Shown: positions 6,434-49,108 of the stretch, one piece after another
Numbering within the stretch: the stretch's first letter is position 1
How the letters are laid out: each line of letters begins with the position of its first letter
Assembly (NCBI GenBank): GCA_965213685.1
Contig: CBDBZY010000016.1
Location: 256,001-320,000, forward strand
Length of the DNA: 64,000 nucleotides
Direction: 5' to 3'
Source of the DNA: a bacterium
GTDB lineage: Bacteria > UBA8248
Translations under genes and position numbers: made by a program
The notes under the pieces: generated by a model
Seen by the model: only the letters and a program-made list of their open reading frames with translations
The model's database searches: none
What the model was told of the DNA's origin: nothing

Positions 6434-8618
<2,185 letters not shown>

Positions 8619-8673
8619 CCTGTGTATTGTGCCATTATATGTACTACCACTATTACATCATGGTTTAAAATGA

Positions 8674-8700
8674 CCAATCAAAACTCACTGCCCATATAAA
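8674..8700 (+). promoter_or_regulatory. CCAAT + TATA-like core promoter upstream of type-B GBP copies
   Basis: CCAAT at 8674-8678 and TATAAA at 8695-8700. The same arrangement lies upstream of the copies at 22910, 40175 and 60899. Confidence 0.4.
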
Positions 8701-8845
8701 GATGAAAAATTCCCCCTGCTGTTACAACCCTGACATGTAATTATGGTTTGCTATGCTCAGCAATTCCATAACGTGTAGCAAGAGAGAAGCACTAGAAATC
8801 ACCACTTTCTCATTGCCTCACTCCAGTACCAAACAGCTACCAGCG

Positions 8846-10951
8846 ATGGCTAAGAAGCAGGAAGTTCCCTCCCTCACCCCTCGAGACCTCACCCTCCCTG
8901 GTAGGTCCCTCCCTCCTGCCATGCCCCTCATCATCTCCACCCAAGACAGGTGGGACCCTCACAGCTGCAAGCTGGAGACTCACCAGCACAACAGCCAACC
9001 ACAACACCTACAGCTAGTCACAGACACTCTACAACTGCTGGGAACCATCAACAAGCCTGTGGCTGTCCTGTCCATCTGTGGTCCCTACCGCTCGGGGAAG
9101 TCCTACTTCATCTCCCGACTGCTGGGCAGGCCTGGGGCCTTTCAGCTGGGCCACAGGATGCAAGCCTGTACACGTGGAATCTGGATGGCCACCACTGTCC
9201 TGGAGTGTGAGCAGTTTGTCACAATCTTGCTGGACACGGAAGGCATTGATGCCATTAGAGCCTCCGAGACCATGGATGCGAGCTTGCTGACTGTCACCAC
9301 ACTCCTCAGCTCCTACCTCATCTACAACTCCATGAAGGTGCCCCAGAAGGTGGACCTGGACAAGATGAGGTGCTTCACCCAGCTCTCCAGGTCTCTGCTT
9401 GTGCAGAAAGGGGAGTCCATGAGGGCAGAGGTCATGAGGAAGTTCTTCCCTCACTTTCTGTGGCTACTGCGAGACGTGACACTGAAAGTGACAGACAGAG
9501 CCGGCCAGACCATCTCAGCCACTGAGTTCCTGCACACTCGTGTGCTGGCCTCACAATCTGGCCAGCCTACAGAGCTGGGCAAGTCTCTTTGCAGCCTCTT
9601 CCCCTCACTGGAATGCCACACTCTTCCCATGCCAAGCATCAACCCCAATGTCATCAAGAACATTGTGGAGCAACAGGACAAGCTGAAACCAGCATTCAAC
9701 AAGGCAGTGGATGAGCTGATCCAGCGAATCCTGCAGCAAGTCACGCCCAAGAAAGCCATCGATGGAGTGAGTGTGGTGGATGGCCCAGCTCTAGCTGCTC
9801 TGACCCGTGGCTATGTGGATGCCATCAACACACCAGGAACAATACCAGACCTGGAACAAGGCTGGCAGGCCGTCATCAAGTGGAAACTGAAGGAACTATC
9901 AGACAAGCTAGTGGAGGAGTACAGGAGAGAGATGGAGGAATGTTTAGGAGAAAATCTTCCCATGGAGGAGAGGAATCTGATGAGAATCCACCAACAGACA
10001 CTGAGCAGGAAAAGAGAGTCACTGCAGCAGGAGATCCGTCGACTCAAGCCATTGAGTTCCACCTCTGGAGACAAAGACCCAATCCTGAGTCAACTGGAGC
10101 AAGCAATCAGTCAGACAAACGAGGGGGGTGAGGTGATTGGGGGGGTCCTGTTCCAGTTCACCACTCAGAATTACTCCAAGTCCAAGCAGCAGTGTGAAGA
10201 GGTGCTGATGGAAGCAGTGAAGAGCAGTGGAATTCACAAGAAGTGTCAAGAAGCCTTCATCAACTCACAGCCACTGGACATAATGGCAGAGATACAGGAG
10301 ATTGAGAGGCAATACCACAGCCAAGCTGTTGGACCAGCAGCCAGTGAAGTGCTGGAGAAAGGCCACAGAGAACTGAACCAACTGGGAGACTCACTCAAGA
10401 GAATTCCTGGCCCACCTAGTGAGGTGGAGGTCGTTGGACAGGGACCTGATCGAGTGAAGCTGAGCTGGCAACCTCCAGAGAAGAATCCTGAGGCTGCTGA
10501 GAGCTATGTGGTGTGGAAACAAGAGGGGAAGCAGTGGGAGAGGGTGAGGGAGACAAAGAAGACCAAAATCCTCATCACTGGACTGAAGTCAAACACAAAG
10601 TACCAGTTCAGAGTCACAGCCACTAATGACCTGATTAAGAGTGTGGCTGCAACACAGGGCTCAGAGACAATGTGGTCAAAAGCTAAGATGGGAGCTATTG
10701 CTGGTGGTGCAGGAGCAATTGGTCTGTCTCTGATGTCAGTTGCACTTGCTATTGTTATGAGTGATAAAAAAATGAGTATAATAATGGCAGTAGCCATATC
10801 AGTCGCCACTGCACCAATCAGCCTCATATGTGCTCCAGTTACTGCTACTGTGGGTGGAGTTTGGTTCGCTAGGGAGTTGATAAAGGAGTGTGAATGGGGA
10901 GACCTGTCCCCAGAGAGTGATGATGAGACGTCATGTGACTCCACAAAATGA
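8846..10951 (+). CDS. GBP-like GTPase-FN3-hydrophobic-tail protein, leader type B (MAKKQEVP), intact; alternative upstream ATG at 8753
   Basis: Uninterrupted ORF with GBP G1-G4 motifs, an FN3 signature (PGPP..V..LSWQPP..Y..ITGLKS.T.YQFRVTA.N) and two hydrophobic segments. Confidence 0.9.
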   Translation: MAKKQEVPSLTPRDLTLPGRSLPPAMPLIISTQDRWDPHSCKLETHQHNSQPQHLQLVTDTLQLLGTINKPVAVLSICGPYRSGKSYFISRLLGRPGAFQLGHRMQACTRGIWMATTVLECEQFVTILLDTEGIDAIRASETMDASLLTVTTLLSSYLIYNSMKVPQKVDLDKMRCFTQLSRSLLVQKGESMRAEVMRKFFPHFLWLLRDVTLKVTDRAGQTISATEFLHTRVLASQSGQPTELGKSLCSLFPSLECHTLPMPSINPNVIKNIVEQQDKLKPAFNKAVDELIQRILQQVTPKKAIDGVSVVDGPALAALTRGYVDAINTPGTIPDLEQGWQAVIKWKLKELSDKLVEEYRREMEECLGENLPMEERNLMRIHQQTLSRKRESLQQEIRRLKPLSSTSGDKDPILSQLEQAISQTNEGGEVIGGVLFQFTTQNYSKSKQQCEEVLMEAVKSSGIHKKCQEAFINSQPLDIMAEIQEIERQYHSQAVGPAASEVLEKGHRELNQLGDSLKRIPGPPSEVEVVGQGPDRVKLSWQPPEKNPEAAESYVVWKQEGKQWERVRETKKTKILITGLKSNTKYQFRVTATNDLIKSVAATQGSETMWSKAKMGAIAGGAGAIGLSLMSVALAIVMSDKKMSIIMAVAISVATAPISLICAPVTATVGGVWFARELIKECEWGDLSPESDDETSCDSTK

Positions 10952-11377
10952 CATGACAATACTCTATGGCTAGCTATAGCTGCTCTTGTGTGTACAAGTT
11001 CATGTACTCTCATACCTGCCACAATAAACACAACATGCACATGTAATTATTATGCACATGTATTTTGATATAATTATTATGGAGTGGATGTAACTCAACA
11101 CAAGCTTTGTTACTATGACACTGTGTTGGCATGGTAATAGCAGACCCTGAGTGAGCATCCATAGTGTAGGTGAAGCCAGAGAGGTCACCAGTGGGTAGCA
11201 CACACAGCAGTGATCATCACTGGTTGTCATGACGAGATGGCCTCTGTCCTTATTATGTAGTTGCCATGTCCCTATGACATGTCGCTGTCTGTATCGGCTT
11301 CTGATTGGTCATTTTTCAATTGTCATGTGACTGGGTTTCTGAGTTCGTTGTATAATGGCTAAAATGGTGGATGACTG

Positions 11378-11705
11378 CTACTTAACTTCAGTGGCAAAGA
11401 TGTGAGGAGGGGAGGGGTGAGGAGGGGAGGGGGAGGATGGGGAGGGTGATTTTGAGTGTGTTGCTCTCCCATTGAGTTGGTCTACAGGGTAAGAGAGGGC
11501 CAGCTGGAATGAGTTAAGGGAGGGAGGGAAAGAGGGAGGGAGGGAGATGGAGAGAGTAGGAAAAGGAAAGGGAGAGGGAGGGAAGGAGGGAGGAAGAGTA
11601 AGAGGTTGCTAGGATACATCCAGGAGGTATGGTGGTGTTTTGTTCTGAAGTAGCAGCTGTTTCTCAAACACATTCAATTCCACATCTGCTGCAGAGCTCT
11701 GTGTG
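11378..11705 (-). pseudogene. Kintoun-like 3' fragment (last two exons, with deletions)
   Basis: Matches 2900-3460 with internal deletions and is joined directly to a GBP fragment. Confidence 0.75.
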
Positions 11706-11719
11706 AAGGAGAGGAGGCA

Positions 11720-12335
11720 CCAGTCCTGAGTCAACTGGAGCAAGCAATCAGTCAGACAAACGAGGGGAGTGAGGTAATTGGGGGGATCCTGTTCCAGTTC
11801 ACCACTCAGAACTACTCCAAGTCCAAGCAGCAGTGTGAAGAGGCAACCTCCGGAGAAGAACCCTGAGGCTGCTGACAGCTATGTGGTGTGGAAACAAGAG
11901 GAGGGGATGGAGTGGGAGAGGGTGAGGGAGACAAAGAAGACCAAAATCCTCATCACTGGACTGAAGTCAGGGACAAAGTACCAGTTCAGAGTCACAGCCA
12001 CTAATGACCTGATTAAGAGTGTGACTATAGCACAGGACTCACAGACATTGTGGTCAAAAGCTAAGATGGGAGCTATTGCTGGTGGTGCAGGAGCAATTGG
12101 TCTGTCTCTGATGCCAGTTGCACTTGCTATTCATGTTATGAGTGATAAAAAAATGAGTATAAAAATGGCAGTAGCCATATCAGTCGCCACTGCACCAATC
12201 AGCCTCATATGTGCTCCAGTTACTGCTACTGTGGGTGGAGTTTGGTTTGCTAGGCAAATGATCAATTTGTGCTACCACAGTGGAGACCTGTCCCCAGAGA
12301 GTGATGATGAGACGTCATGTGACTCCACAGAATGA
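11720..12335 (+). pseudogene. GBP-like 3' fragment (partial helical region, internal deletion at ~11842, FN3 + tail)
   Basis: Begins at PVLSQLEQ and jumps from GAAGAGG to CAACCTCC. The FN3 and tail are nearly identical to those of the copy at 22910. Confidence 0.85.
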
Positions 12336-12696
12336 CATGACCATACTCTATGGCTAGCTATAGCTGCTCTTGTGTGTACACGTTCATGTACTCTCATACC
12401 CGCCACAATACACACAACATGCACATGTATTTTGATATGGAGTGGATGTAACTGACAAGGACAGTTATTGTCAATACAAGCCTTGTTTATATGACATTGT
12501 TAGCATGACATTGTGTTGGCATGGCAACAGCATATAAATGAGAACCCATCAGTAGTGTGGGTGGAGCCAGAGAGGTCACCAGTGGGTAGCACACACAGCA
12601 GTGATCATCACTGGTTGTCATGGTGAGATGGGCCCCTGTCATCAAATCAACCACAATAATTATGGAGTTGCCATGTCCCCAGCCACAGAGCAGTGC

Positions 12697-12793
12697 TAGC
12701 CTCATTCCCTGGCCTTCTCCCACATGCCAGCACAACACCACACCCAGCATGGTGGAGTGCTTGTGTGTGGAGGGCAGATTGGGAACAAGGCTA
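12697..12793. mobile_element. ~97-bp TAGCCTC...AGGCTA MITE; copies near 25386, 28252, 31640 and 46150
   Basis: Imperfect TIRs tagcctcattccc / gggaacaaggcta, with degenerate 9-bp flanks gagcaRtgc / gagtgatgt. Confidence 0.6.
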
Positions 12794-12827
12794 GAGTGAT
12801 GTGGATTGAATGACCATAAACTAATTA

Positions 12828-12998
12828 TTATACACTGTACATGTAGTGGTGAGTGTTATGAGCACCGCTAGTGATGAGTATCATGACTTGTGTTCCTGTG
12901 GTGACTGAGTGCTGAGGTGATTGTGGTTCTCTTGGCCTGATCCACAGCAGTGGGAACATTCCAATCAAACATCTGATGATGATACCAGCACAGCGACC
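12828..12998 (-). pseudogene. Orphan terminal exon of a TMEM65-like gene
   Basis: A pyrimidine tract + CAG acceptor is followed by GRCAGIII(G/R)CLIGMFPLLWI, resembling the TMEM65 C-terminal helix (GKAVGVTIGCILGMFPLIFF, from memory). No upstream exons are recognisable. Confidence 0.6.
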
Positions 12999-13847
12999 CT
13001 GAGATGGGGGAAGAGGAGGATGAGAAAGAGAGTGAGTACATTAAAACACCAGAGAAAGGAAGGAGAGAGGCAGGCAGGCAGGCAGGCAGACAAGCAACTA
13101 AGCAAGTAGGCAGACAGACAGACAGATAGACAGACAGACAACTGTATCCACTTCAGGAGAGAAGCTTCATAGATGCCATAGGGTGGGTAGTATACACAAC
13201 ACTTTGGCTATTATGCCCTCCTCAATGTGATGTACAAACACGAGAAAGAGGTGCTCTATATTGAGGGTGACTATTAATGTCTGAGCCAGCATGCCAGGTA
13301 CTACAGAGCAAGGTTAATTAGGATGCAGAGATAAAATTATGACAAGCATTGTAACATGCTGGACAGGAGTTGTGCGTGTACAATGCATCACAGACTATCG
13401 ACGCTGAGGTTCATTCCTGTGAGATGAGAGGTCCCCAGGAGCCTTTATATCCACTTGCTCTCCCTATAAACTCCTGGAGACCTCTCATCCCAATGTGATA
13501 GCGAAGGAACCCCCCAGAGTGAAATTTGGGGTCCCCGGGAATATCATTCTCTCCATGCAGAGTGCTAGCAAGGCAAACACATATCCACTGTAACACGACT
13601 GCACCCCATGCCACAGTATCATACATGCCACAATAAACAGAACTCAGGACCACTAATCGTAACTGAAAGTAGTTTACCAAAAATTGCGAGTAGGGGCAGA
13701 GCCTGGGAACGAGCTAGGCTAACATGGCCTCCCTCTGCTCGAGCAAAGTTGCGCGACCTTGACCTCTGCGGCTTTGCTATTTTCCGAGTTCAAAAATCAC
13801 TCATCAACATCGCGCGTGTGGACCTTGGGGACGGGGCTAATCCGAAG

Positions 13848-13879
13848 TAGCCTCGTTCCCAGGCCTGGGAACGAGGCTA
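13848..13879. mobile_element. 32-bp perfect palindromic mini-element with 9-bp TSD (AATCCGAAG)
   Basis: tagcctcgttcccagg|cctgggaacgaggcta is flanked by aatccgaag at 13839-13847 and 13880-13888, and is absent from the paralogous site near 26615. Confidence 0.85.
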
Positions 13880-14865
13880 AATCCGAAGGTACTATATATT
13901 TTCCCCAGGCCGCTTACGTGACCACTCGGCCCCCGCATGAATGCGCGCTGCGCGTCCTTGATACAAGTGTACAGCACTCAACTAGCTGGGTAAGAACTCT
14001 TTGGACTTGTGCAAGTGCTCTTCAAACTCTCCTTACTGCAAGGAAAAGAGGTGGCTAAAGTGCTGCAGTGGCTGTTTTGACAGAATGGATGTGAGCACTC
14101 ACTGGGAGATTTTCGCAACTGAACATGCGAACCTTACATCATCATTACACAATATCTCTACTTATGATAGTAGCAATATCTGCACAGAGAAGCAAACATA
14201 CATTACCATACATGGAGTACCACACTCCAAATACATCACACAGGACAGCTATATATGTACATGGCACTGCTAGACACATACAATATTGAGGAAGGTGAAT
14301 TGATGTATATATACACTGCAGCATTGTCACACAACATTCACTTCAATTTGAACCCTTTTCGGGCATAATACTTCCCATGATCATGCAGCTCAAAGCATGT
14401 CATGTAACTAAGTATATAACTCTCTAGCTTTTACCTTGACAGAACACAAATTACCTACTGCTGTGCTTGCCCATATACTATGAGGAATATTTCCCTATAT
14501 TCAGTGAACATGATAACATGAGAGTGCATGTATATGTGTTAAAACAAGAAAGAGTTGTTAGAGGAGTTGCTATACAGCAGTCCTTCTTGTCAAAAACACA
14601 GAAGGAAAAGCTCTAGCCTTGAGACTCAGGCTACTTGTGGAAACACTGACTTACTGTCTATAGTATACCACACAATAATATATACACACACTACTCCATT
14701 TTGGACATGTACATTGTGCTTTACTCACTAGCTACCGGTGTCGTGTGAATTTCAATGTTTATACAGCCCAACTTCCATTCACAGACAGAGGTCACTGAGG
14801 TCATTCAGTGTATTAGAATACTGGGCAATTGGTGCTTGTATTGATCCACTGCTGTTAGCTTTACA

Positions 14866-16990
14866 ATGGCTGCCTATGGAGACACAGTTGAGAAAGCTGC
14901 CTCCTCCCTCACCCCTCGAGACCTCACCCTCCCTGGTAGGTCCCTCCCTCCTGCCATGCCCCTCATCATATCCACCCAAGACAGGTGGGACCCTCACAGC
15001 TGCAAGCTGGAGACTAACCAGCACAACAGCCAACCACAACACCTACAGATAGTCACAGACACTCTACAGCTGCTGGGAACCATCAACAAGCCTGTGGCTG
15101 TCCTGTCCATCTGTGGTCCCTACCGCTCGGGGAAATCCTACTTCATCTCCCGACTGCTGGGCAGGCCTGGGGCCTTTCAGCTGGGCCACAGGATGCAAGC
15201 CTGTACACGTGGAATCTGGATGGCCACCACTGTCCTGGAGTGTGAGCAGTTTGTCACAATCTTGCTGGACACGGAAGGCATTGATGCCATTAGAGCCTCT
15301 GAGACCATGGATGCAAGCTTGCTGACTGTCACCACACTCCTCAGCTCCTACCTCATCTACAACTCCATGAAGGTGCCCCAGAAGGTGGACCTGGACAAGA
15401 TGAGGTGCTTCACACAGCTCTCCAGGTCTCTTGCAGAAAGGGGAGTCCATGAGGGCAGAGGTCATGAGGAAGTTCTTCCCTCACTTTCTGTGGCTACTGC
15501 GAGACGTGACACTGAAAGTGACAGACAGAGCCGGCCAGACCATCTCGGCCACTGAGTTCCTGCACACTCGTGTGCTGGCATCACAATCTGGCCAGCCTAC
15601 AGAGCTGGGCAAGTCTCTTTGCAGCCTCTTCCCCTCACTGGAATGCCACACTCTTCCCATGCCAAGCATCAACCCCAAAGTCATCAAGAACATTGTGGAG
15701 CAACAGGACAAGCTGAAACCAGCATTCAACAAGGCAGTGGATCAACTGATCCAGCGAATCCTGCAGCAAGTCACGCCCAAGAAAGCCATCGATGGAGTGA
15801 GTGTGGTGGATGGCCCAGCTCTAGCTGCTCTGACCCGTGGCTATGTGGATGCCATCAACACACCAGGAGCAATACCAGACCTGGAACAAGGCTGGCAGGC
15901 CGTTATCAAGTGGAAACTGAAGGAACTATCAGACAAGCTAGTGGAGGAGTACAGGAGAGAGATGGAGGAATGTTTAGGAGACAATCTTCCCATGGAGGAG
16001 AGGAATCTGATGAGAATCCACCAACAGACACTGAACAGGAAAAGGGAGTCACTACAGCAGGAGATCCGTCGACTCAAACCATTGAGTTCCACCTCTGGAG
16101 ACAAAGACCCAATCCTGAGTCAACTGGAGCAGGCAATCAGTCAGACAAACGAGGGGGGTGAGGTGATTGGGGGGGTCCTGTTCCAGTTCACCACTCACAA
16201 CTACTCCAAGTCCAAGCAGCAGTGTGAAGAGGTGCTGATGGAAGCAGTGAAGAGCAGTCGAATTCACAAAAAGTGTCAAGAAGCCTTCATCAACTCACAA
16301 CCACTGGACATAATGGCAGAGATACAGGAGATTGACTGGCAATACCACAGGCAAGCTGTCGGACCAGCAGCCAGTGAAGTGCTGGAGAAAGGCCACAGAG
16401 AACTGAACCAACTGGGAGACTCACTCAAGAGAATTCCTGGCCCACCTAGTGAGGTGAGCGACATTGGACAGGGACCTGATCGAGTGAAGCTGAGCTGGCT
16501 ACCTCCAGAGAAGAACCCTGAGGCTGCTGAGAGCTATGTGGTGTGGAAACAAGAGGAGGGGAAGCAGTGGGAGAGGCTGAGGGAGACAAAGAAGACCAAA
16601 ATCCTCATCACTGGACTGAAGTCAGAGACAAAGTACCAGTTCAGAGTAACAGCCACTAATGACCTGATTAAGAGTGTGGATACAACACAAGCTTCATGGA
16701 CAAATGAGTCAAAAGCTAAGATAGGAGCTCTTGGTGGTGGAGTAGGAGCAGGTTTATTTCTATTGGCCCCAGTTGCAAGTACTATTTGGGCTGTCACTGG
16801 TGAAGACATGATTACAAGAAAAGGAGTAGCCATATCAGTCGCCACTGCACCACTCAGCCTCATATGTGCTCCAGTTACTGTTCCTGTGGGTGGGGTTTGG
16901 CTTGCTAGGACAGCGATCAAGGGTACGTGTGAATGGGGAGACCTGTCCCCAGAGAGTGATGATGAGACATCACGTGACTCCACAGAATGA
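14866..16990 (+). pseudogene. GBP-like gene, leader type A, frameshifted by a 5-bp deletion at ~15431
   Basis: aggtctct[gctcg]tgcag deletion relative to paralogs splits the gene into ORFs 14866-15555 and 15431-16990. Confidence 0.88.
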
Positions 16991-17426
16991 CATGACAATA
17001 CTCTATGGCTAGCTATAGCTGCTCTTGTGTGTACAAGTTCATGTACTCTCATACCCGCCACAATAAACACAACATGCACATGTATTTTGATCTAATTGTT
17101 ATGGAGTGGATGTAACTCAATACAAGCTTTGTTACTATGACATTGTGTTGGCATGGCAACAGCAGACCCTGAGTGAGCATCCATAGTGTGGGTGGAGCCA
17201 GAGAGGTCACCAGTGGGTAGCACACACAGCAGTGATCATCACTGGTTGCCATGACGAGATGGCCTCTGTCCTTATTGTGTAGTTGCCATGTCCCTATGAC
17301 ATGTCGCTGTCCGTACCGGCTTCTGGTGCAATCTGATTGGTCATTTGATTCTTCTCATCACATGATTTGTTTGCATTGTCACGTGACTTGGTTTCTGAGT
17401 TCTGGTTGGTGGCTAAATGGTGGCTG

Positions 17427-20629
<3,203 letters not shown>

Positions 20630-20799
20630 AGCAGCGGAAGAATCGCCACACGGTCTCCGCAAACACGACAACAAAGTATACTGACGTGTACGGTGCGTTG
20701 CATTCCGTATATGTTGAGTATCCGGTAAATGGGTGGGGCTGCAATACGAGTTGCAGCTCCTAGTAGTGTGGCTTGCTGAGCTAGGAGAAAAGCGTAGCG

Positions 20800-22651
<1,852 letters not shown>

Positions 22652-22667
22652 CCTGCGTATTGTGCCA

Positions 22668-22739
22668 TTATCTGTACTGCCACTATTACATCATGGTTTA
22701 AAATTATCTGTACTACCACTATTACATCATGGTTTAAAA
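22668..22739 (+). repeat. 36-bp tandem duplication in the ICAP1 3' end / GBP promoter interval
   Basis: ttatctgtactRccactattacatcatggtttaaaa occurs twice here and once in paralogs. Confidence 0.85.
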
Positions 22740-22909
22740 TTACCAATCAAAACCTACTGCCCATATAAGGATCCCCTGCTGCTACAACCCTGACATGAAT
22801 ATAATTATGGTTTGCTATGCTTAGCAATTCTATAACGTGTAGCAAGAGAGAAGCACTAGAAATCACCACTTTCTCATTGCCTCGCTCCAGTACCAAACAG
22901 CTACCAGCG

Positions 22910-25024
22910 ATGGCTAAGAAGCAGGAAGTTCCCTCCCTCACCCCTCGAGACCTCACCCTCCCTGGTAGGTCCCTCCCTCCTGCCATGCCCCTCATCATCT
23001 CCACCCAAGACAGGTGGGACCCTCACAGCTGCAAGCTGGAGACTCACCAGCACAACAGCCAACCACAACACCTACAGCTAGTCACAGACACTCTACAGCT
23101 GCTGGGAACCATCAACAAGCCTGTGGCTGTCCTGTCCATCTGTGGCCCCTACCGCTCAGGGAAGTCCTACTTCATCTCCCGACTGCTGGGCAGGCCTGGG
23201 ACCTTTCAGCTGGGCCACAGGATGCAAGCCTGTACACGTGGAATCTGGATGGCCACCACTGTCCTGGAGTGTGAGCAGTTTGCCATAATAATGCTAGATA
23301 CAGAAGGTATCGATGCCATTAGAGCCTCTGAGACCATGGCCATGAGCTTGCTGACTGTCACCACACTCCTCAGCTCCTACCTTATCTACAACTCCAAGAA
23401 GGTGCCCCAGAAGGTGGACCTGGACAAGATGAGGTGCTTCACCCAGCTCTCCAGGTCTCTGCTCATGCAGAAAGGGGAGTCCATGAGGGCAGAGATCATG
23501 AGGAAGTTCTTCCCTCACTTTCTGTGGCTACTGCGAGATGTGACACTGAAAGTGACAGACAGAGTTGGCCAGACCATCTCAGCCACTGAGTTCCTGCACA
23601 CTCGTGTGCTGGCATCAGAAGCTGGCCAGCCTACAGAGCTGGGCAAGTCTCTTTGCAGCCTCTTCCCCTCACTGGAATGCCACACTCTTCCCATGCCAAG
23701 CATCAACCCCAAAGTCATCAAGAACATTGTGGAGCAACAGGACAAGCTGAAACCAGCATTCAACAAGGCAGTGGATCAACTGATCCAGCGAATCCTGCAG
23801 CAAGTCACGCCCAAGAAAGCCATCGATGGAGTGAGTGTGGTGGATGGCCCAGCTCTAGCTGCTCTGACCCGTGGCTATGTGGATGCCATCAACACACCAG
23901 GAGCAATACCAGGCCTGGAACAAGGCTGGCAGGCTGTCATCAAGTGGAAACTGAAGGAACTATCACACAAGCTAGTGGAGGAGTACAGGAGAGAGATGGA
24001 GGAATGTTTAGGAGACAATCTTCCCATGGAGGAGAGGAATCTGATGAGAATCCACCAACAGACACTGAGCAGGAAAAGAGAGTCACTGCAGCAGGAGATC
24101 CGTCGACTCAAGCCATTGAGTTCCACCTCTGGAGACAAAGACCCAGTCCTCAGTCAACTGGAGCAGGCAATCAGTCAGACAAACGAGGGGGGTGAGGTGA
24201 TTGGGGGGGTCCTGTTCCAGTTCACCACTCACAACTACTCCAAGTCCAAGCAGCAGTGTGAAGAGGTGCTGGTGGAAGCAGTGAAGAGCAGTGGAATACG
24301 CAAGAAGTGTCAGGAAGCCTTCATCACCTCACAGCCACTGGACATAATGGCAGAGATACAGGAGATTGAGAGGCAATACCACAGGCAAGCTGTTGGACCA
24401 GCAGCCAGTGAAGTGCTGGAGAAAGGCCACAGAGAACTGAACCAGCTGGGAGACTCACTCAAGAGAATTCCTGGCCCACCTAGTGAGGTGGAGGTCGTTG
24501 GAAAGGGACCTGATCGAGTGAAGCTGAGCTGGCAACCTCCAGAGAAGAACCCTGAGGCTGCTGAGAGCTATGTGGTGTGGAAACAAGAGGAGGGGATGGA
24601 GTGGGAGAGGGTGAGGGAGACAAAGAAGACCAAAATCCTCATCACTGGACTGAAGTCAGGGACAAAGTACCAGTTCAGAGTCACAGCCACTAATGACCTG
24701 ATTAAGAGTGTGACTATAACACAGGACTCACAGACATTGTGGTCAAAAGCTAAGATGGGAGCTATTGCTGGTGGTGCAGGAGCAATTGGTCTGTCTCTGA
24801 TGCCAGTTGCACTTGCTATTCATGTTATGAGTGATAAAAAAATGAGTATAAAAATGGCAGTAGCCATATCAGTCGCCACTGCACCAATCAGCCTCATATG
24901 TGCTCCAGTTACTGCTACTGTGGGTGGAGTTTGGTTTGCTAGGCAAATGATCAATTTGTGCTACCACAGTGGAGACCTGTCCCCAGAGAGTGATGATGAG
25001 ACGTCATGTGACTCCACAGAATGA
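22910..25024 (+). CDS. GBP-like GTPase-FN3-hydrophobic-tail protein, leader type B, intact; upstream ATG at 22817
   Basis: Uninterrupted 735-aa ORF with all motifs. Confidence 0.9.
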   Translation: MAKKQEVPSLTPRDLTLPGRSLPPAMPLIISTQDRWDPHSCKLETHQHNSQPQHLQLVTDTLQLLGTINKPVAVLSICGPYRSGKSYFISRLLGRPGTFQLGHRMQACTRGIWMATTVLECEQFAIIMLDTEGIDAIRASETMAMSLLTVTTLLSSYLIYNSKKVPQKVDLDKMRCFTQLSRSLLMQKGESMRAEIMRKFFPHFLWLLRDVTLKVTDRVGQTISATEFLHTRVLASEAGQPTELGKSLCSLFPSLECHTLPMPSINPKVIKNIVEQQDKLKPAFNKAVDQLIQRILQQVTPKKAIDGVSVVDGPALAALTRGYVDAINTPGAIPGLEQGWQAVIKWKLKELSHKLVEEYRREMEECLGDNLPMEERNLMRIHQQTLSRKRESLQQEIRRLKPLSSTSGDKDPVLSQLEQAISQTNEGGEVIGGVLFQFTTHNYSKSKQQCEEVLVEAVKSSGIRKKCQEAFITSQPLDIMAEIQEIERQYHRQAVGPAASEVLEKGHRELNQLGDSLKRIPGPPSEVEVVGKGPDRVKLSWQPPEKNPEAAESYVVWKQEEGMEWERVRETKKTKILITGLKSGTKYQFRVTATNDLIKSVTITQDSQTLWSKAKMGAIAGGAGAIGLSLMPVALAIHVMSDKKMSIKMAVAISVATAPISLICAPVTATVGGVWFARQMINLCYHSGDLSPESDDETSCDSTE

Positions 25025-25516
25025 CATGACCATACTCTATGGCTAACTATAGCTGCTCTTGTGTGTACACATTCATGTACTCTCATACCTGCCACAATAC
25101 ACACAACATGCACATGTATTTTGATATGGAGTGGATGTAACTGACAAGGACAGTTATTGCCAATACAAGCCTTGTTTATATGACATTGTTAGCATGACAT
25201 TGTGTTGGCATGGCAACAGCATATAAATGAGAACCCATCAGTAGTGTGGGTGGAGCCAGAGAGGTCACCAGTGGGTAGCACACACAGCAGTGATCATCAC
25301 TGGTTGTCATGATGAGATGGGCCCCTGTCATCAAATCAACCACAATTATTATGGAGTTGCCATGTCCCCAGCCACAGAGCAATGCTAGCCTCATTCCCAG
25401 GCCTTCCCCCACATGCCAGCACAACACCACACCCAGCATGGTGGAGTGCTTGTGTGTGGAGGGCAGTCTGGGAAGAAGGCTAGAGTGATGTGGATTGAAT
25501 GACCATAAACTAATTA

Positions 25517-25687
25517 TTATACACTGTACATGTAGTGGTGAGTGTTATGAGCACTGCTAGTGATGAGTATCATGACTTGTGTTCCTGTGTTGACTGAGTG
25601 TTGAGGTGATTGTGGTTCTCTTGGCCTGATCCACAGCAGTGGAAACATTCCAATCAAACATCTGATGATGATACCAGCACAGCGACC
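25517..25687 (-). pseudogene. TMEM65-like terminal exon, copy 2
   Basis: Paralog of 12828-12998. Confidence 0.58.
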
Positions 25688-25815
25688 CTGAGACGGGAGA
25701 AGAGGAGGATGAGAAAGAGAGTGAGTACATTAAAACACCAGAGAAAGGAAGGAGAGAGGCAGGCAGGCAGGCAGGCAGGCAAGCAGACAAGCAACCAAGC
25801 AAGTAGGCAGACAGG

Positions 25816-25846
<31 letters not shown>

Positions 25847-27578
25847 CTGTATCCACTTCAGGAGAGAAGCTTCATAGATGCCATAGGGTGGGTAGTATAC
25901 ACAACATTTTGGCTATTATGCCCTCCTCAGTGTGATGTACAAACACGAGAAAGAGGTGCTCCATATTGAGGGTGACTATTAATGTCTGAGCCAGCATGCC
26001 AGGTACTACAGAGCAAGGTTAATTAGGATGCGGAGATAAAATTATGACAAGCATTGTAACATGCTGACAGGAGTTGTGCATGTACAATGCATCACAGACT
26101 ATCGACGCTGAGGTTCATGCCTGTGAGATGAGAGGTCTCCAGGAGCCTTTATATCCACTTGCTCTCCCTATAAAACTCCTGGAGACCTCTCATCCCAATG
26201 TGATAGCGAAGGAACCCCCCAGAGTGAAATTTGGGGTTCCCGGGAATAGCATTCTCTCCAGAGCGCTAGCAAGGCACACACACATCCACTGTAGCACGAC
26301 TGCACCCCATGCCACAGTATCATACATGCCACAATAAACAGAACTCAGAACCACTAATCGTAACTGAAAGTAGTTTACCAAAAATTGCGAGTAGGGGCAG
26401 AGCCTGGGAACGAGCTAGGCTAACAGGGCCTCCCTCTGCTCGAGCAAAGTTGCGCGACCTTGACCTCCGCGGCTTAGCTATGGCGGACGTCAAAAACTAT
26501 GCGCAGTGAAGTATGCGCTTAATAACGAGGTGCGCCTAACAACCGGTGTTTACGGTATTTTCGGAGTTCAAAAATCACTCAACAATATCGCGCGTGTGGG
26601 TCTGAGGACGGGCTAATCCGAACATACACGAAGGTACTATATATATTTCGCCAGGTCGCTTACGTGGCCACTCGGGCCCCCGTATGAATGCGCGCGTGAT
26701 ACAAGTGTACAGCACTCAACTAGCTGGGTAAGAACTTTTTGGACTGTGCAAGTGCTCTTCAAACTCACCTTACTGCAAGAAATCAAAAGAGGTGGCTAAC
26801 GTGCTGCGGTGGCTGACGGGATGTGATATCTTAGACGTGAGCAGTCACTGAGAGATTTTCGTAACTGAACATGCGCACCTTACATCATCATTACACAATA
26901 TCACGTAAGCAATATCCGCCACAGAGAAGCGAACATACGTTACCATACATGGAGTACCACACTCCAAATGCATCACACAGGGCAGCTATAATTATGTGTA
27001 CATGGTACTGCTAGACACATACATACAATATTGAGGAAGGTGAATTGACGTACATGTACAATACAACCTGCTCAGCTTACATTGTCAAACAATGGTCTGT
27101 TCAACTTCAACCCTCTTCAGACATAATTGTTATATCGTTTTTCACTTCACATGATCATGCAGCTCAAAGCATGTCATGTAACTGCAAGTTCATAACTCTC
27201 TAGCTTTTGCCTTGATGGGAGACAAAGTACCTGAACAAGTTCTGCCTGTCCATACTATGAGGAATAGCATATTTCCCTGCATGTATTCAGTAAACATGAT
27301 AGTATGAGAGCGCGTGTATGTGTGTTGCTACAAGATAAGAAGAGTTTCCATACAGCAGTCCTCCTTGTCAAAATCACAGAAGCAGCAGCTCTATAGCCTT
27401 GAGACTCAGCTATACTTTTGGAAACATTGCATGAATGAAGTATCCCATACAACAATATATACACACACTACTCCATTTTGGACATGCACATTGTACTCTA
27501 CTCACTAGCTACTGGTGTCATGTGTACTGCAATGTATATACAGCCCAACTTCCATTCACAGCACAAGTAGTAGGGTAG

Positions 27579-27892
27579 CAGCCACTAATGACATGATTAA
27601 AAGTGTGGCTGCAACGCAAGATTCATGGACAAATGATTCAAAAACTTCAGCAGTAGCTTATGGTGGTATTATAGGAAGTTTGTGCTCACTGGCCCCAGCT
27701 ACACTTGCTATTAGTAGGTTTGGGTTGAGTACAGGAGAAACAGTGACCATATCAGTTGCCACTGCACCTATCAGCCTCATATGTGTTCCAGTTACTGCTC
27801 CTGTGTTTGCAGTTTGGGCTGCTAGGGACATGATCGAGAGAGAGTGTGACTGGGGAGACCTGTCCCCAGAGAGTGATGATGAGATGTCATGA
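27579..27892 (+). pseudogene. Diverged GBP-like tail-only remnant fused to a type-A upstream region
   Basis: 27250-27560 matches the type-A upstream region and then jumps to ATNDMIKSV...WGDLSPESDDEMS*. The GTPase and helical regions are deleted. Confidence 0.8.
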
Positions 27893-28443
27893 CTCCACAG
27901 AGTGACATGTCAATACTCTATGTGTGTACAAGTTCATGTACTCTCATACCTGCCACAATAAACACAATGTGCACATGTACTTATTATGAAGTAGATGTAA
28001 CTGACAGTAACAGTAACTCTTAGAATATTTATCAATACAGACCTTGTTTTCGTGACATTGTGTTGGCATGGCAACAGCAGACTCTGAGTGAGCATCCTAG
28101 TGTGGGTGGAGCCAGAGAGCTCGAGGTCACCAGTGGATAGCACATACAGCAGTGATCATCACTAGCTGGTTGTCATGACAAGATGGGCCCCTGTCATCAA
28201 CCACAATATTATTATTATGGAGTTGCCATGTCCCAAGCCACAGAGCAGTGCTAGCCTCATTCCCAGGCCTTCCCCCACATGCCAGCACAACACCACACCC
28301 AGCATGGTGGAGTGCTTGTGTGTGGGGAGCAGTCTGGGAACAAGGCTAGAGTGATGTGAATTGATACATAGCAAATGACCGTAAACATCATAATAATTAT
28401 ACACTGTAGTGGTGAGTGTTGTGAGCACTGCTAGTGATGACTA

Positions 28444-28563
28444 TCATGACTTGTGTTTCTCTGTGGTGACTGAGTTTTGAGGTGATTGTGGTTCTCTCGG
28501 CCTGATCCACAGCAGTGGGAACATTCCAATCAAACATCCAATGATGATACCAGCACAGCGACC
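28444..28563 (-). pseudogene. TMEM65-like terminal exon, copy 3
   Basis: GRCAGIIIGCLIGMFPLLWIRPREPQ follows a CAG acceptor. Confidence 0.6.
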
Positions 28564-29465
28564 CTGAGACGGGGGAAGAGGAGGATGAGAAAGAGAGTAA
28601 GTAACCAGAGGAAGAGGTACATGTATGAGAGTGGAAGCAGATAAGCAGGCTGGCAGGCCAAAGGCAGGCAGACAGATACAGACAGACATGGAATTTTGAC
28701 TCCATAGAATAACATGACAATGGCTCCTCTTGTGTGGTAGTACAACCTCTTGCACTCTCATACCTGCCATATAGCCTCCCAGGCTCTTTTCGGGCCTGGA
28801 TACGAGGCTAACCTAAACATCACATCAACCAGGTCCTTGCACTACCCCACCAGGCGGGCCACTGAATGTACCTGGCGTCCAACACTGTTGTTACGCTCAA
28901 AATATGCCATTTGCTGACTGAACTAAGTCAAACAATTACATGTACACAATGATCGTATACCCCAGCAGATGGCGGCGGTACTTTAGACCACAGAATATCA
29001 ATGACTAGACATCATTAGCGTATTCTCACAAGCCTCCAATCTACCTGCATATTTACTAGAGATCTATGGACCAGCCAAGAATGCGGATAATTATATCACT
29101 GTTACCTACAATGTACTGCCCACTCGCTACTCGGTGCCCACTACTGAACACCAGCACCGTGTAGCGCCATATACGCTAAATATTGACGGTATAGCTATTT
29201 GCTAAACACCAAAGCTATTTACTAAACATACTAGTAAATATCCCCTATGTACTAGTAAACATACTAGTACATAGGGGATATACCCTTTGCTATATCCCCT
29301 TAAAAAATTAGGGTTTTCAAATTTGGGCCAACAGCACCCCATAATTCTTTGAAGAGTAGTACGTCACAGCATAGATATCTATGGTCACGGCGGTGTGGGG
29401 GAGGTCCCTACGTTTAGAATGCGACGCACAGGTATTAGAGCCCACCAGTAGCTTTGCTCATATGC

Positions 29466-35092: not shown

Positions 35093-35529
35093 CATGACAA
35101 TACTCTATGGCTAGCTATAGCTGCTCTTGTGTGTACAAGTTCATGTACTCTCATACCTGCCACAATACACACAATGTACACATGTATTTTGATATAATTA
35201 TTATGGAGTGGATATAACTCAATACAAGCTTTGTTACTATGACACTGTGTTGGCATGGCAACAGCAGACCCTGAGTGAGCATCCATAGTGTGGGTGGAGC
35301 CAGAGAGGTCACCAGTGGGTAGCACACACAGCAGTGATCATCACTGGTTGTCATGACAAGATGGGCCCCTGTCAATTATTATGTAGTTGGCAGGTCCCTA
35401 TAACATGTCGCAGTCTGTACCGGCTTCTGGTGCAATCTCATTGGTCATTTGATTCTTCTCATCACATGATTTGCTTGCATTGTCACGTGACTGGGTTTCT
35501 GAGTTCTGGTTGGTGGCTAAATGGTGACT

Positions 35530-37773
<2,244 letters not shown>

Positions 37774-47520: not shown

Positions 47521-48892
47521 TTATTATGTTGCTGTATATTTTTACTTTACATGATTATTGTGTAACTATTCTTTGCCCTGACAAGAAAGAGAGAACCTGA
47601 ACAACTGCTTGTCCATACTATGAGAAATAGTGCATTTCCCTATATTCTGTAAACACGATAATATGAGGACACATGATTGTATAGGTGTTCATACAGGAGA
47701 GGGTGGCCACCAATACAGCAGTACTTCTTGTCACAAACACAGAGGAGAAACTCTAGCCTTGTGACTCAGCTACTTGTGGAAACACTGACATATTGTCTAT
47801 AGTATACCACACAATAATATAATCACACACTACTCCATTTTGGACACGCACATTGTGCTCTACTCACTAGCTACTGGTGTCATGTGAATTTCAATGTTTA
47901 TACAGCCCAACTTCCATCCACAGACAGAGGTCACTGAGGTCATTCAGTGTATTAGATTACAGGGCAATTGGTGCTTGTATTGATCCACTGCTGTTAGCTT
48001 TACAATGGCTGCCTGTGGAGACACAGTTGAGAAAGCTGCCTCCTCCCTCACCCCTCGAGACCTCACCCTCCCTGGTAGGTCCCTCCCTCCTGCCATGCCC
48101 CTCATCATCTCCACCCAAGACAGGTGGGACCCTCACAGCTGCAAGCTGAAGACTCACCAGCACAACAGCCAACCACAACACCTACAGATAGTCACAGACA
48201 CTCTACAACTGCTAGGAACCATCAACAAGCCTGTGGCTGTCCTGTCCATCTGTGGCCCCTACCGCTCGGGGAAGTCCTACTTCATCTCCCGACTGCTGGG
48301 CAGGCCTGGGGCCTTTCAGCTGGGCCACAGGATGCAAGCCTGTACACGTGGAATCTGGATGGCCACCACTGTCCTGGAGTGTGAGCAGTTTGCCACAATC
48401 CTGCTGGATACGGAAGGCATCGATGCCATTGGAGCCTCCGAGATCATGGCCATGAGCTTGCTGACTGTCACCACACTCCTCAGCTCCTACCTCATCTACA
48501 ACTCCAAGAAGGTGCCCCAGAAGGTGGATCTGGACAAGATGAGGTGCTTCACCCAGCTCTCCAGGTCTCTGCTCGTGCAGAAAGGGGAGTCCATGAGGGC
48601 AGAGGTCATGAGGAAGTTCTTCCCTCACTTTCTGTGGCTACTGCGAGATGTGACACTGAAAGTGACAGACAGAGCCAGCCAGACCATCTCGGCCACTGAG
48701 TTCCTGCACACTCGTGTGCTGGCATCACAATCTGGCCAGCCTACAGAGCTGGGCAAGTCTCTTTGCAGCCTCTTCCCCTCACTGGAATGCCACACTCTTC
48801 CCATGCCAAGCATCAACCCCAAAGTCATCAAGAACATTGTGGAGCAACAGGACAAGCTGGAACCAGCATTCAACAAGGCAGTGGATGAGCTG

Positions 48893-49087
48893 TGTAGTAT
48901 ATTGCAGTGTAATCATCTCTCATTGTGATGTCACGTTTGTTTCCTCTATTATGCATGTCTATTTCCTGTATTGCATTTGTACTGTATATAAGTGCTGTGT
49001 TGTATTGTTGTAGTGGGAGTTGTCATAAGTCAGTTGTCAGTCCTTGCGCGCTCCTAGCTGCCAACGAACGAACCCGAGTACACGACA
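48893..49087 (+). repeat. 5' LTR
   Basis: tgtagtat...cacgaca; direct repeat of 53186-53380. Confidence 0.95.
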
Positions 49088-49090
49088 TAT

Positions 49091-49108
49091 TGGCGACGAG
49101 GATGGGAT
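49091..49108 (+). other. Primer binding site, complementary to the tRNA-Ser(GCU) 3' end
   Basis: TGGCGACGAGGATGGGAT is the reverse complement of ATCCCATCCTCGTCGCCA, the metazoan tRNA-Ser(GCU) 3' terminus as recalled. Confidence 0.8.

What the first reader, a model, noticed from the sequence alone, without database searches (positions are those of the whole stretch)
11720..25024. Tail-only fragment matches the tail of an intact gene: direct trace of cassette swapping by recombination
Seen: block 1 reads GBP-B (8846, tail X) - kintoun fragment - GBP fragment (11720-12335, tail Y) - downstream DNA. Block 2 reads GBP-B (22910) ending directly in tail Y (EEGMEW..QDSQTLWS..IHVM..RQMINLCYHSG) followed by the same downstream DNA (12335-14500 ~ 25024-27250). 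Inference: a crossover in FN3 removed ~1.4 kb and put tail Y on an expressed gene, or the reverse event created the fragment. Fragments at 11720, 27579 and 63722 could act as silent donor cassettes.
Basis: partly seen in the sequence, partly recalled or inferred. Interest (0 to 1): 0.72.

Follow-up and report, generated by a model that had tools for sequence, protein, structure and literature searches.

The report
Truncated gene relic in GBP array
The tail-only piece is real, but it is best read as the leftover of a whole gene cut down by a deletion, inside a large animal gene array whose members keep swapping short stretches of their rapidly evolving membrane anchor.

Summary
Observation confirmed, with corrections. 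The window is an animal (probably sponge) contig inside a mixed bacterial assembly. It holds part of a ~200-kb head-to-tail array of 28 single-exon genes for a GBP-type GTPase, FN3 domain and two-helix membrane hairpin.

The fragment at 11720-12335 matches the tail and downstream DNA of gene 22910 (96.8% over 1956 bp). It is not a clean tail cassette:
- It starts at a non-homologous junction, spacer just past a shrunken (TG)n joined to codon ~408.
- It keeps 124 bp of helical domain out of frame.
- It has a 266-bp internal deletion.

A twin with identical junctions lies at 63722. A third Y relic elsewhere in the array has different junctions, so truncation happened at least twice. The simplest reading is a ~6.2-kb deletion into a once-complete Y gene.

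Recombination is nevertheless pervasive:
- "Tail X" of gene 8846 carries a Y-type first membrane helix (10673-10788), flanked by non-Y sequence (tree 100/99; AU p=0.024).
- Leader and tail trees conflict (AU p=4e-22 and 1e-48).
- The hairpin shows dN/dS 1.7.

The proposed FN3 crossover is not supported. Programmed donor cassettes remain untested and unlikely. This is ordinary array evolution in an undescribed gene family.

The parts
8846..10951 (+). Intact gene 'B1': B'-type (L4) leader, homogenised GTPase/helical body, hybrid tail
   Evidence: ORF (732 aa from the upstream ATG); Pfam GBP 1.2e-39, GBP_C, fn3; leader class L4, tail class T4
10673..10788 (+). Y-type tract (first membrane helix and loop) inside the tail of B1; outer limits 10670 and 10874
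   Evidence: 16 of 19 Y-diagnostic columns are Y here, 0 of 59 further 3'. Tree places B1 in the Y clade at 100/99. 8/118 differences to Y against 47/115 to the nearest X-type tail
10952..11303 (+). X-type 3' flank of B1
   Evidence: 7/280 differences to the flank of gene C16:236020 against 29/271 to gene 22910; AU rejects B1+Y here, p=0.024
11319..11716 (.). Start of the X-type spacer, with a broken PIH1_CS (kintoun-like) relic on the minus strand, ending just past a (TG)n shrunk to three units
   Evidence: Pfam PF18201 on the homologous spacer, E 1.5e-6
11706..11720 (.). Junction J1: spacer joined non-homologously to the gene at about codon 408
   Evidence: alignment; sequence; a 250-base contig of run X5 lies across 11605-11788
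11720..11843 (+). 124-bp piece of the helical domain (codons 408-453), out of frame with the tail
11843..11844 (.). Junction J2: 266-bp deletion (gene-22910 coordinates 24267-24532), GG microhomology
11844..12335 (+). Partial FN3, membrane hairpin and acidic C-tail of type Y; frame still open
   Evidence: 84 of 86 diagnostic columns Y; 3/494 differences to gene 22910
12336..13780 (+). Downstream DNA of the Y module
   Evidence: 96.8% to 25025-26481; 30/1060 differences
22910..25024 (+). Intact Y-tailed gene 'B2' (L2 leader, tail class T1), one of four in the array
25025..26481 (+). Downstream DNA of the Y module behind B2
27556..27892 (+). Second kind of relic: DNA from ~70 bp upstream of an A-type start codon, joined to the last FN3 strand, hairpin and tail of a diverged class
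   Evidence: junction; 59% identity, three copies in the array
60899..63007 (+). Twin of B1 (B1'), with the same Y-type tract
63722..64000 (+). Twin of the fragment with the same J1 and J2; runs off the window; 1-bp insertion (frameshift) further on

Best explanation
The fragment is the remnant of a once-complete Y-tailed gene. In the ancestral arrangement a gene with a B'-type leader and an X-type tail was followed by its spacer and then by a complete Y gene.

A non-homologous deletion of about 6.2 kb (measured on the block at 14572-29283) fused that spacer to codon ~408 of the Y gene. The left break lies a few bases past a (TG)n microsatellite. A second, 266-bp microhomology deletion then removed the end of the helical domain. 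The whole block was later duplicated, which gave the twin at 63722.

The array as a whole evolves by unequal crossing-over and gene conversion. These homogenise the GTPase/helical body and reassort leaders and tails. The membrane hairpin stays diverse under positive selection. One such exchange put a Y-type first membrane helix (at least 116 bp) into the tail of gene 8846. The donor may have been the relic 1.4 kb downstream or any intact Y gene.

Shown: the junctions, the mosaic tail, the incongruent trees and the dN/dS pattern. Inferred: the order of events, the ancestral arrangement and the donor.
For: 1. Junction anatomy. J1 joins two non-homologous sequences. The fragment keeps 124 bp of helical domain that a tail cassette would not need, and that piece is out of frame after a 266-bp deletion.
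2. The arrangement the model requires exists. All 4 intact Y genes are preceded by a gene with an X-type tail, the kintoun-type spacer and the ICAP-1-type spacer.
3. A third Y relic (C16:190467) follows the same kind of gene but has other break points (spacer ~19480 joined to 24717). Neither form can derive from the other, so truncation by deletion happened at least twice.
4. The relic at 27556 is also a deletion product, with a further pair of break points.
5. The fragment sits inside the Y clade (100/100), nearly identical to intact Y tails (3/494). The flanks of gene 8846 are much more distant from block 2 (leader 91%, upstream spacer 92.7%).
6. Exchange:
- Y tract in B1 and B1'.
- Leader/tail incongruence, AU p=3.9e-22 and 1.1e-48.
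- Hudson-Kaplan Rmin 47 in the 1.6-kb body.
- dS is 0.06-0.07 in the body, while 3' flanks of different classes are ~80% identical.
7. Positive selection on the hairpin: dN/dS 1.71, with 233 of 253 pairs dN>dS. The same segment is the least conserved in 59 homologues from other assemblies.
Against: - No undeleted 'B'-leader gene, spacer, Y gene' arrangement survives in the array. All 3 B'-leader (L4) genes are followed by a Y relic, which a tail-replacement model would predict directly.
- Gene 8846 keeps Y-type sequence immediately 5' of its X-type end. A single complex event could also explain this.
- The two twin fragments do not group together in sequence trees, although the AU test does not reject their grouping (p=0.16).
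- The clades tested with AU were named after the trees were seen.
- All inference rests on one assembly of a highly repetitive region.
Confidence: 0.62

Rival explanations
1. Tail replacement in one aberrant repair event. A break in a B'-leader Y gene was repaired by copying the 3' end, flank and spacer of an X-type paralogue. It was closed by end-joining, giving the gene a new end and stranding its old tail just downstream.
For: 3 of 3 B'-leader genes are followed by an orphan Y tail, and no intact B'-spacer-Y arrangement exists. B' (L4) and Y-gene (L2) leaders are sister classes. Gene 8846 is Y-type up to 10788 and X-type from 10874 onward.
Against: - It needs a duplication of 24140-24860, which a simple break does not give.
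- The fragment is far closer to intact Y genes (3/494) than to the supposedly sister segment in gene 8846: 23/324 positions differ over 24531-24860 as aligned, about 6 of them from a misplaced 3-bp gap.
- The leader and upstream spacer differ from those of Y genes by 7-9%, against ~3% downstream.
- The B'-leader gene at C16:186096 has no Y-type states in its tail.
Confidence: 0.15
2. One reading: an FN3 crossover between gene 8846 and the fragment deleted 1.4 kb and created the Y-tailed gene 22910.
For: The two direct repeats (10467-11248 and 11842-12640) are 87% identical and 1375 bp apart, so such a deletion is mechanically possible.
Against: - Gene 8846 has non-Y states at 24597, 24599 and 24660, so the crossover would have to lie within 66 bp.
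- The leader of gene 22910 is 91% identical to that of 8846 but 98-99.6% to the other three Y genes.
- 19 Y-lineage sites lie in the body, and 8846 shares 2.
- The fragment carries marks of decay from a longer gene.
Confidence: 0.04
3. A programmed (somatic or clonal) diversification system in which promoterless tail cassettes donate sequence to expressed genes.
For: A conserved body and a conserved C-terminal motif flank a hypervariable hairpin under positive selection. One expressed-type gene carries a tract of the class of its neighbouring relic. Relic tails are 3-5 times less diverged from intact tails than the adjoining DNA is, Fisher p=0.004-0.03 in 4 of 4 comparisons that involve a relic.
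Against: - 23 of 28 gene bodies are intact with their own leaders, so there is no single expression site.
- Relics are few and their borders are unrelated accidents.
- One relic is frameshifted.
- Relics of gene 5' ends occur as well.
- The Y tract is shared by two 95%-identical block copies, so it is germline and old.
Confidence: 0.03
4. Assembly artefact: the junctions are mis-joins in a collapsed repeat.
For: The region is highly repetitive, and the assembly is a mixed bin of bacterial and host contigs.
Against: The same two junctions occur twice in blocks that are only 95% identical. A contig of a run from another study lies across J1 with one mismatch.
Confidence: 0.03

Closest known systems
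Tandem multigene families under concerted / birth-and-death evolution (unequal crossing-over, gene conversion, truncated relics). Textbook cases are recalled, not read here.
   Same: Head-to-tail paralogues on one strand, a homogenised core, diverged flanks, mosaic members, relics with illegitimate junctions, and a variable segment under positive selection.
   Different: The family itself (GBP GTPase, FN3 and membrane hairpin, single exon, ~30 copies) did not turn up in print in the searches. The variable part is a membrane helix, not an exposed binding surface.
Pseudogene- or cassette-templated gene conversion systems (chicken Ig light-chain pseudo-V genes, trypanosome VSG, Neisseria pilE/pilS, Borrelia vlsE). 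Recalled.
   Same: A variable segment bounded by conserved sequence. Promoterless partial copies lie near full genes. One full gene carries a short tract of the relic's class.
   Different: Many intact genes rather than one expression site. Relics are few and accidental in outline, and one is frameshifted. There is no evidence of somatic or high-frequency switching.
Vertebrate interferon-inducible GBPs (GBP1/2/5)
   Same: Large GTPase domain plus helical domain: PDB sequence E ~1e-30; Foldseek E 1e-24 to 1e-19, G-domain TM-score ~0.8.
   Different: No CaaX end. Instead an FN3 domain, two hydrophobic helices and an acidic tail. Only the first 78 of 297 GBP_C profile positions match.
Atlastin / RNF112: membrane-anchored GBP-like GTPases
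   Same: GBP-like G domain followed by a helical middle part and two closely spaced membrane helices, so both ends would face the cytosol.
   Different: Sequence and fold are closer to GBPs than to atlastin (1e-30 against 1e-8). Atlastins have no FN3. Function was not tested.

Membership tests
Programmed donor-cassette gene conversion system | One or few expression sites and many promoterless silent cassettes | tested here: not met
   23 of 28 gene bodies have ORFs of 690 aa or more with their own leaders. tblastn also lists about eight partial 3' pieces and three partial 5' pieces in the array.
Programmed donor-cassette gene conversion system | Cassettes comprise the variable segment bounded by conserved recombination borders | tested here: not met
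   Relic 5' borders are non-homologous and differ: spacer joined to 24140 plus a 266-bp deletion; spacer joined to 24717; upstream-of-leader joined to ~24676.
Programmed donor-cassette gene conversion system | Frequent, directional (somatic or clonal) transfer into the expressed copy | not testable with these tools
   Only 100-250-base contigs of public runs could be laid. No RNA holder was listed.
Programmed donor-cassette gene conversion system | Expressed copies are mosaics traceable to donors | tested here: inconclusive
   One case: the Y tract in genes 8846 and 60899. The donor cannot be told, because the relic and the intact Y genes are identical in the tract.
Tandem gene family with concerted evolution | Head-to-tail paralogues with a homogenised core and diverged flanks | tested here: met
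   (all full copies on the + strand); body identity 96-99% against 77-84% in the 3' flank between classes; dS 0.06-0.07 in the body against 0.17 in the hairpin.
Tandem gene family with concerted evolution | Phylogenetic incongruence between segments | tested here: met
   AU p=3.9e-22 and 1.1e-48; p=0.024; Rmin 47.
GBP family (PF02263/PF02841) | GBP-type large GTPase domain | tested here: met
   Pfam E 1e-39, above the cut-off; PDB and Foldseek matches to GBP1/2/5.
GBP family (PF02263/PF02841) | Full C-terminal helical domain, with lipid anchoring by CaaX in the membrane-binding members (recalled) | tested here: not met
   GBP_C matches profile positions 2-78 of 297 only. The protein ends ...SCDSTE behind two hydrophobic helices.
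Atlastin-like membrane GTPases | G domain, helical middle domain and two adjacent membrane helices | tested here: inconclusive
   Hydrophobic segments at 616-642 and 645-677, and model helices 613-642 and 647-683. Similarity to atlastin is weaker than to GBPs. The FN3 insert is foreign to atlastins.

The most novel reading that the evidence does not exclude
The array is a germline diversity generator for the membrane hairpin of a sponge GBP-like defence GTPase. Gene conversion keeps the enzymatic body uniform and moves short hairpin segments between copies. Truncated tail relics persist as conversion partners. The Y-type first helix in genes 8846 and 60899 would then be a captured transfer from the relic 1.4 kb downstream.
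Probability: 0.15. Interest if true: 0.65.

Novelty: new member of a known kind. Interest (0 to 1): 0.36.

Why it matters
As a recombination trace the finding is ordinary. Deletions, unequal crossing-over and short conversion tracts are what tandem arrays do, and the 'cassette' look comes from a homogenised body next to a fast-evolving tail.

What is worth keeping is the gene family. About 30 single-exon GBP-type GTPases each carry an FN3 domain and a two-helix membrane anchor. The first helix of that anchor is the most variable part (dN/dS 1.7), here and in homologues from other assemblies.

If these are defence GTPases of an early-branching animal, variation in a membrane-embedded helix would point to targeting of different membranes. 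That is testable by localisation experiments. The relics and mosaic tails give concrete markers for population studies of how such arrays diversify.

Tried and rejected
- Public runs: 23 runs listed, best share of words 0.46, no RNA holder listed.
- Laying four runs on 9900-14000 gave only contigs of 100-250 bases in this repeat. No structural variants, recombinant forms or expression could be judged. The listed joints have short sides (22-40 letters) and fit paralogues.
- A search for the J2 junction (34 bases) found nothing in metagenome contigs or in genome contigs.
- The search for related loci in genome contigs found no relative.
- Protein Atlas: best score 0.81, leads only.
- Earlier findings by place, words and sequence: nothing on this array.
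- Three paper searches found nothing on GBP-FN3 genes of sponges or invertebrates (listings and abstract starts only).
- Intron-like origin of the two internal deletions was rejected, because neither has GT..AG ends.
- My first reading of the fragment's deletion as 264 bp and in frame was wrong. It is 266 bp and shifts the frame.
- The test of whether the twin fragments fail to group in sequence was not significant (AU p=0.16).
- One MAFFT run timed out and was repeated with faster settings.
Full report
**Setting.** The window is C16:256001-320000 of an assembly of 7.97 Mb in 71 contigs. The contigs fall into two groups. Many have ~63-69% GC. Others, including C16, C64, C18, C41, C7 and C51, have 42-54% GC. 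C16 carries microsatellites, single-exon GBP/FN3 genes, relics of PIH1_CS (kintoun-type) and ICAP-1/PID domains, and an LTR retrotransposon. It is therefore animal DNA binned with a bacterium. Runs labelled 'sponge metagenome' hold small shares of the stretch, and earlier notes of this scan call the low-GC contigs sponge-like. I did not verify the host further.

**The array.** tblastn with the protein of gene 22910 gives 53 matches in the genome. 43 lie on C16 between 178.8 and 375.6 kb. All full-length copies are on the + strand; one short 5' piece is inverted. 28 gene bodies can be aligned, and 23 have ORFs of 690 aa or more. In the window:
- Genes 8846, 22910, 32960, 40175 and 60899 are intact.
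- Gene 29506 has an in-frame 309-bp deletion.
- Genes 385, 14903 and 43705 are broken.
- Gene 48044/53379 is split by a retrotransposon.

**The protein.**
- It has a GBP large GTPase domain (Pfam E 1e-39), the start of GBP_C and an FN3 domain.
- It has two hydrophobic segments, residues 616-642 and 645-677, and an acidic end.
- The AlphaFold model (mean pLDDT 81.3, 52-row alignment) shows the G domain, a helical domain, a beta sandwich at 525-608, and helices 613-642 and 647-683.
- The nearest solved structures are GBP5/1/2, then atlastin-1 and RNF112.
- 238 homologues with the same domains exist in other assemblies, all unnamed.

**The observation.** It holds.
- 11842-13780 equals 24531-26481 at 96.8% over 1956 columns. 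Identity then drops to 80% for 13884-14787 against 26629-27565.
- The tail DNA of the fragment differs from that of gene 22910 at 3 of 494 positions.
- 84 of 86 columns diagnostic for the Y lineage carry the Y state in the fragment.
- The block 7716-11998 recurs at 59778-64000 (95.2%) with the same fragment.
- In the whole array there are four intact Y-tailed genes (C16:204174, 231370, 278910 = window 22910, and 332316).
- There are three Y relics (C16:190467, 267720 = window 11720, and 319722 = window 63722).

**Break-point mapping.** The fragment is not a tail cassette.
- On its left, homology to the spacer behind X-tailed genes (for example 35375-35900) runs through a (TG)n that is reduced to three units, and about 11 bases beyond it. 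The gene then starts at about codon 408. This junction (J1, 11706-11720) joins non-homologous DNA.
- The next 124 bp (11720-11843) are helical-domain sequence.
- At 11843/11844 a 266-bp deletion (24267-24532, GG microhomology) joins that piece, out of frame, to the FN3 start.
- In the coordinates of the block at 14572-29283, J1 corresponds to a deletion from about 17970 to 24140, roughly 6.2 kb.
- All four intact Y genes are preceded by exactly what such a deletion would remove: an X-tailed gene, the kintoun-type spacer, the ICAP-1-type spacer and a B leader.
- The third Y relic has other break points, spacer ~19480 joined to 24717. It retains more spacer and less gene, so neither relic can derive from the other.
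- The relic at 27556-27892 is a different, diverged tail class. Its junction joins DNA ~70 bp upstream of an A-type start codon to the last FN3 strand.
- Relics of gene 5' ends also occur.

Repeated illegitimate deletion is thus the general source of fragments here.

**Is gene 22910 a recombinant of gene 8846 and the fragment?** The evidence is against it.
- The leader of 22910 is 98-99.6% identical to those of the other Y genes but 91% to that of 8846.
- 19 sites in the body are diagnostic for the Y lineage, and 8846 shares 2.
- 8846 has non-Y states at 24597, 24599 and 24660. That leaves only 66 bp for the proposed FN3 crossover.

**Real traces of exchange.**
- 'Tail X' of gene 8846 and its twin is a mosaic. 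Across 24740-24858 (window 10673-10788, the first membrane helix and loop), 16 of 19 diagnostic columns are Y-type. Two of the three exceptions come from a misplaced 3-bp gap. From 24944 onward, 0 of 59 columns are Y-type.
- Trees agree. In 24740-24860 the two genes sit in the Y clade (100/99). In 24861-25330 they sit with X-type tails (93/92), and the AU test rejects a clade with Y (p=0.024).
- Raw counts in the tract are 8/118 differences to Y against 47/115 to the nearest X-type tail. In the 3' flank they are 29/271 to gene 22910 against 7/280 to that X-type gene.
- Array-wide, tail class T3 occurs with leader classes L3 (twice) and L1, and T2 with L5 (twice) and L1. Forcing these tail sets to be clades in the leader tree is rejected, p=3.9e-22 and 1.1e-48. 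The sets were named after the tail trees were seen.
- In the 1.6-kb body, 3212 of 7260 pairs of informative sites show all four gametes, and Rmin is 47.
- Body dS is 0.06-0.07, while 3' flanks of different classes are only ~80% identical. The body is therefore homogenised.

**Selection.** Over 253 gene pairs, dN/dS is 0.32 (GTPase), 0.37 (helical), 1.05 (FN3), 1.71 (hairpin; 233 pairs with dN>dS) and 0.77 (C-tail). In 59 full-length homologues the first helix plus loop (consensus fraction 0.33) and the juxtamembrane stretch (0.28) are the least conserved parts, against 0.80 for the GTPase.

**Do relics still take part in exchange?** In 7 of 7 comparisons among Y-type copies, the tail coding part is 3-5 times or more less diverged than the adjoining downstream DNA. 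For gene 22910 against the fragment this is 3/494 against 30/1060, p=0.004. The range of p over all seven is 0.001-0.03. Four of the seven comparisons involve a relic. For relics, one of which is frameshifted, purifying selection is an unlikely cause. Homogenisation with intact Y tails is the simplest reading. Uneven mutation, or conversion of the downstream DNA by other classes, is not excluded. Direction and donor cannot be told, because the relic and the intact Y genes are identical within the tract.

**What remains unexplained.** All 3 genes with the B'-type (L4) leader are followed by a Y relic, and no undeleted arrangement survives. This keeps a tail-replacement model alive at about 0.15. 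That model fits poorly with two facts. The fragment is much closer to intact Y genes than to the Y-like part of gene 8846. The upstream flanks are 7-9% diverged from those of Y genes, against ~3% downstream.

**Verdict.** The specific FN3 crossover and the 'silent donor cassette' system are not. The feature is ordinary tandem-array evolution in a gene family that the paper searches did not find described.

Noticed in passing
whole assembly (contigs C1-C71): The assembly is a mixed bin. Many contigs have ~63-69% GC, while C16, C64, C18, C41, C7, C51 and others have 42-54% GC and look like animal (probably sponge) DNA. The window is host DNA, not bacterial.
   Followed up: partly
window 48893-53380: An LTR retrotransposon splits a GBP gene into 48044-48886 and 53379 onward. 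Its two 195-bp terminal repeats are 100% identical. It has an open 1342-aa gag-pol frame (zinc knuckle, RT, RNase H, integrase), so the insertion is very young.
   Followed up: partly
window 30792/30793: Gene 29506 has an in-frame 309-bp deletion relative to its 96-98% identical partner at 43705. The right end of that deletion lies 5 bp from the right end of the fragment's 266-bp deletion. Two independent deletions therefore end at the start of FN3.
   Followed up: partly
window 7794-8108 and 21892-22209: Each spacer in front of a B-type leader holds an open ~100-aa piece matching the ICAP-1 integrin-binding / PID domain (PF10480, E 5.5e-12). This is an exon-like relic of an unrelated gene, duplicated along with the array unit.
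   Followed up: no
C16:186096, 264846, 316899: All three genes with the B'-type (L4) leader are followed by a truncated Y gene. No undeleted version of this pair exists in the array.
   Followed up: partly
C64:1589043-1590945: A lone, frameshifted copy of the gene (80-89% identity in pieces) lies on another contig, outside the array.
   Followed up: no
C16:247299-247514: An inverted 5' piece of a gene (codons 9-80) lies directly behind gene C16:244917. It is the only minus-strand piece found in the array.
   Followed up: no
window 63722-64000 and beyond (C16:319722-320338): The twin fragment has non-Y states at 24597 and 24599, like its neighbour gene and all non-Y genes. It also shares several downstream variants and two indels with the intact Y gene at C16:231370. 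This hints at further patchy exchange.
   Followed up: partly
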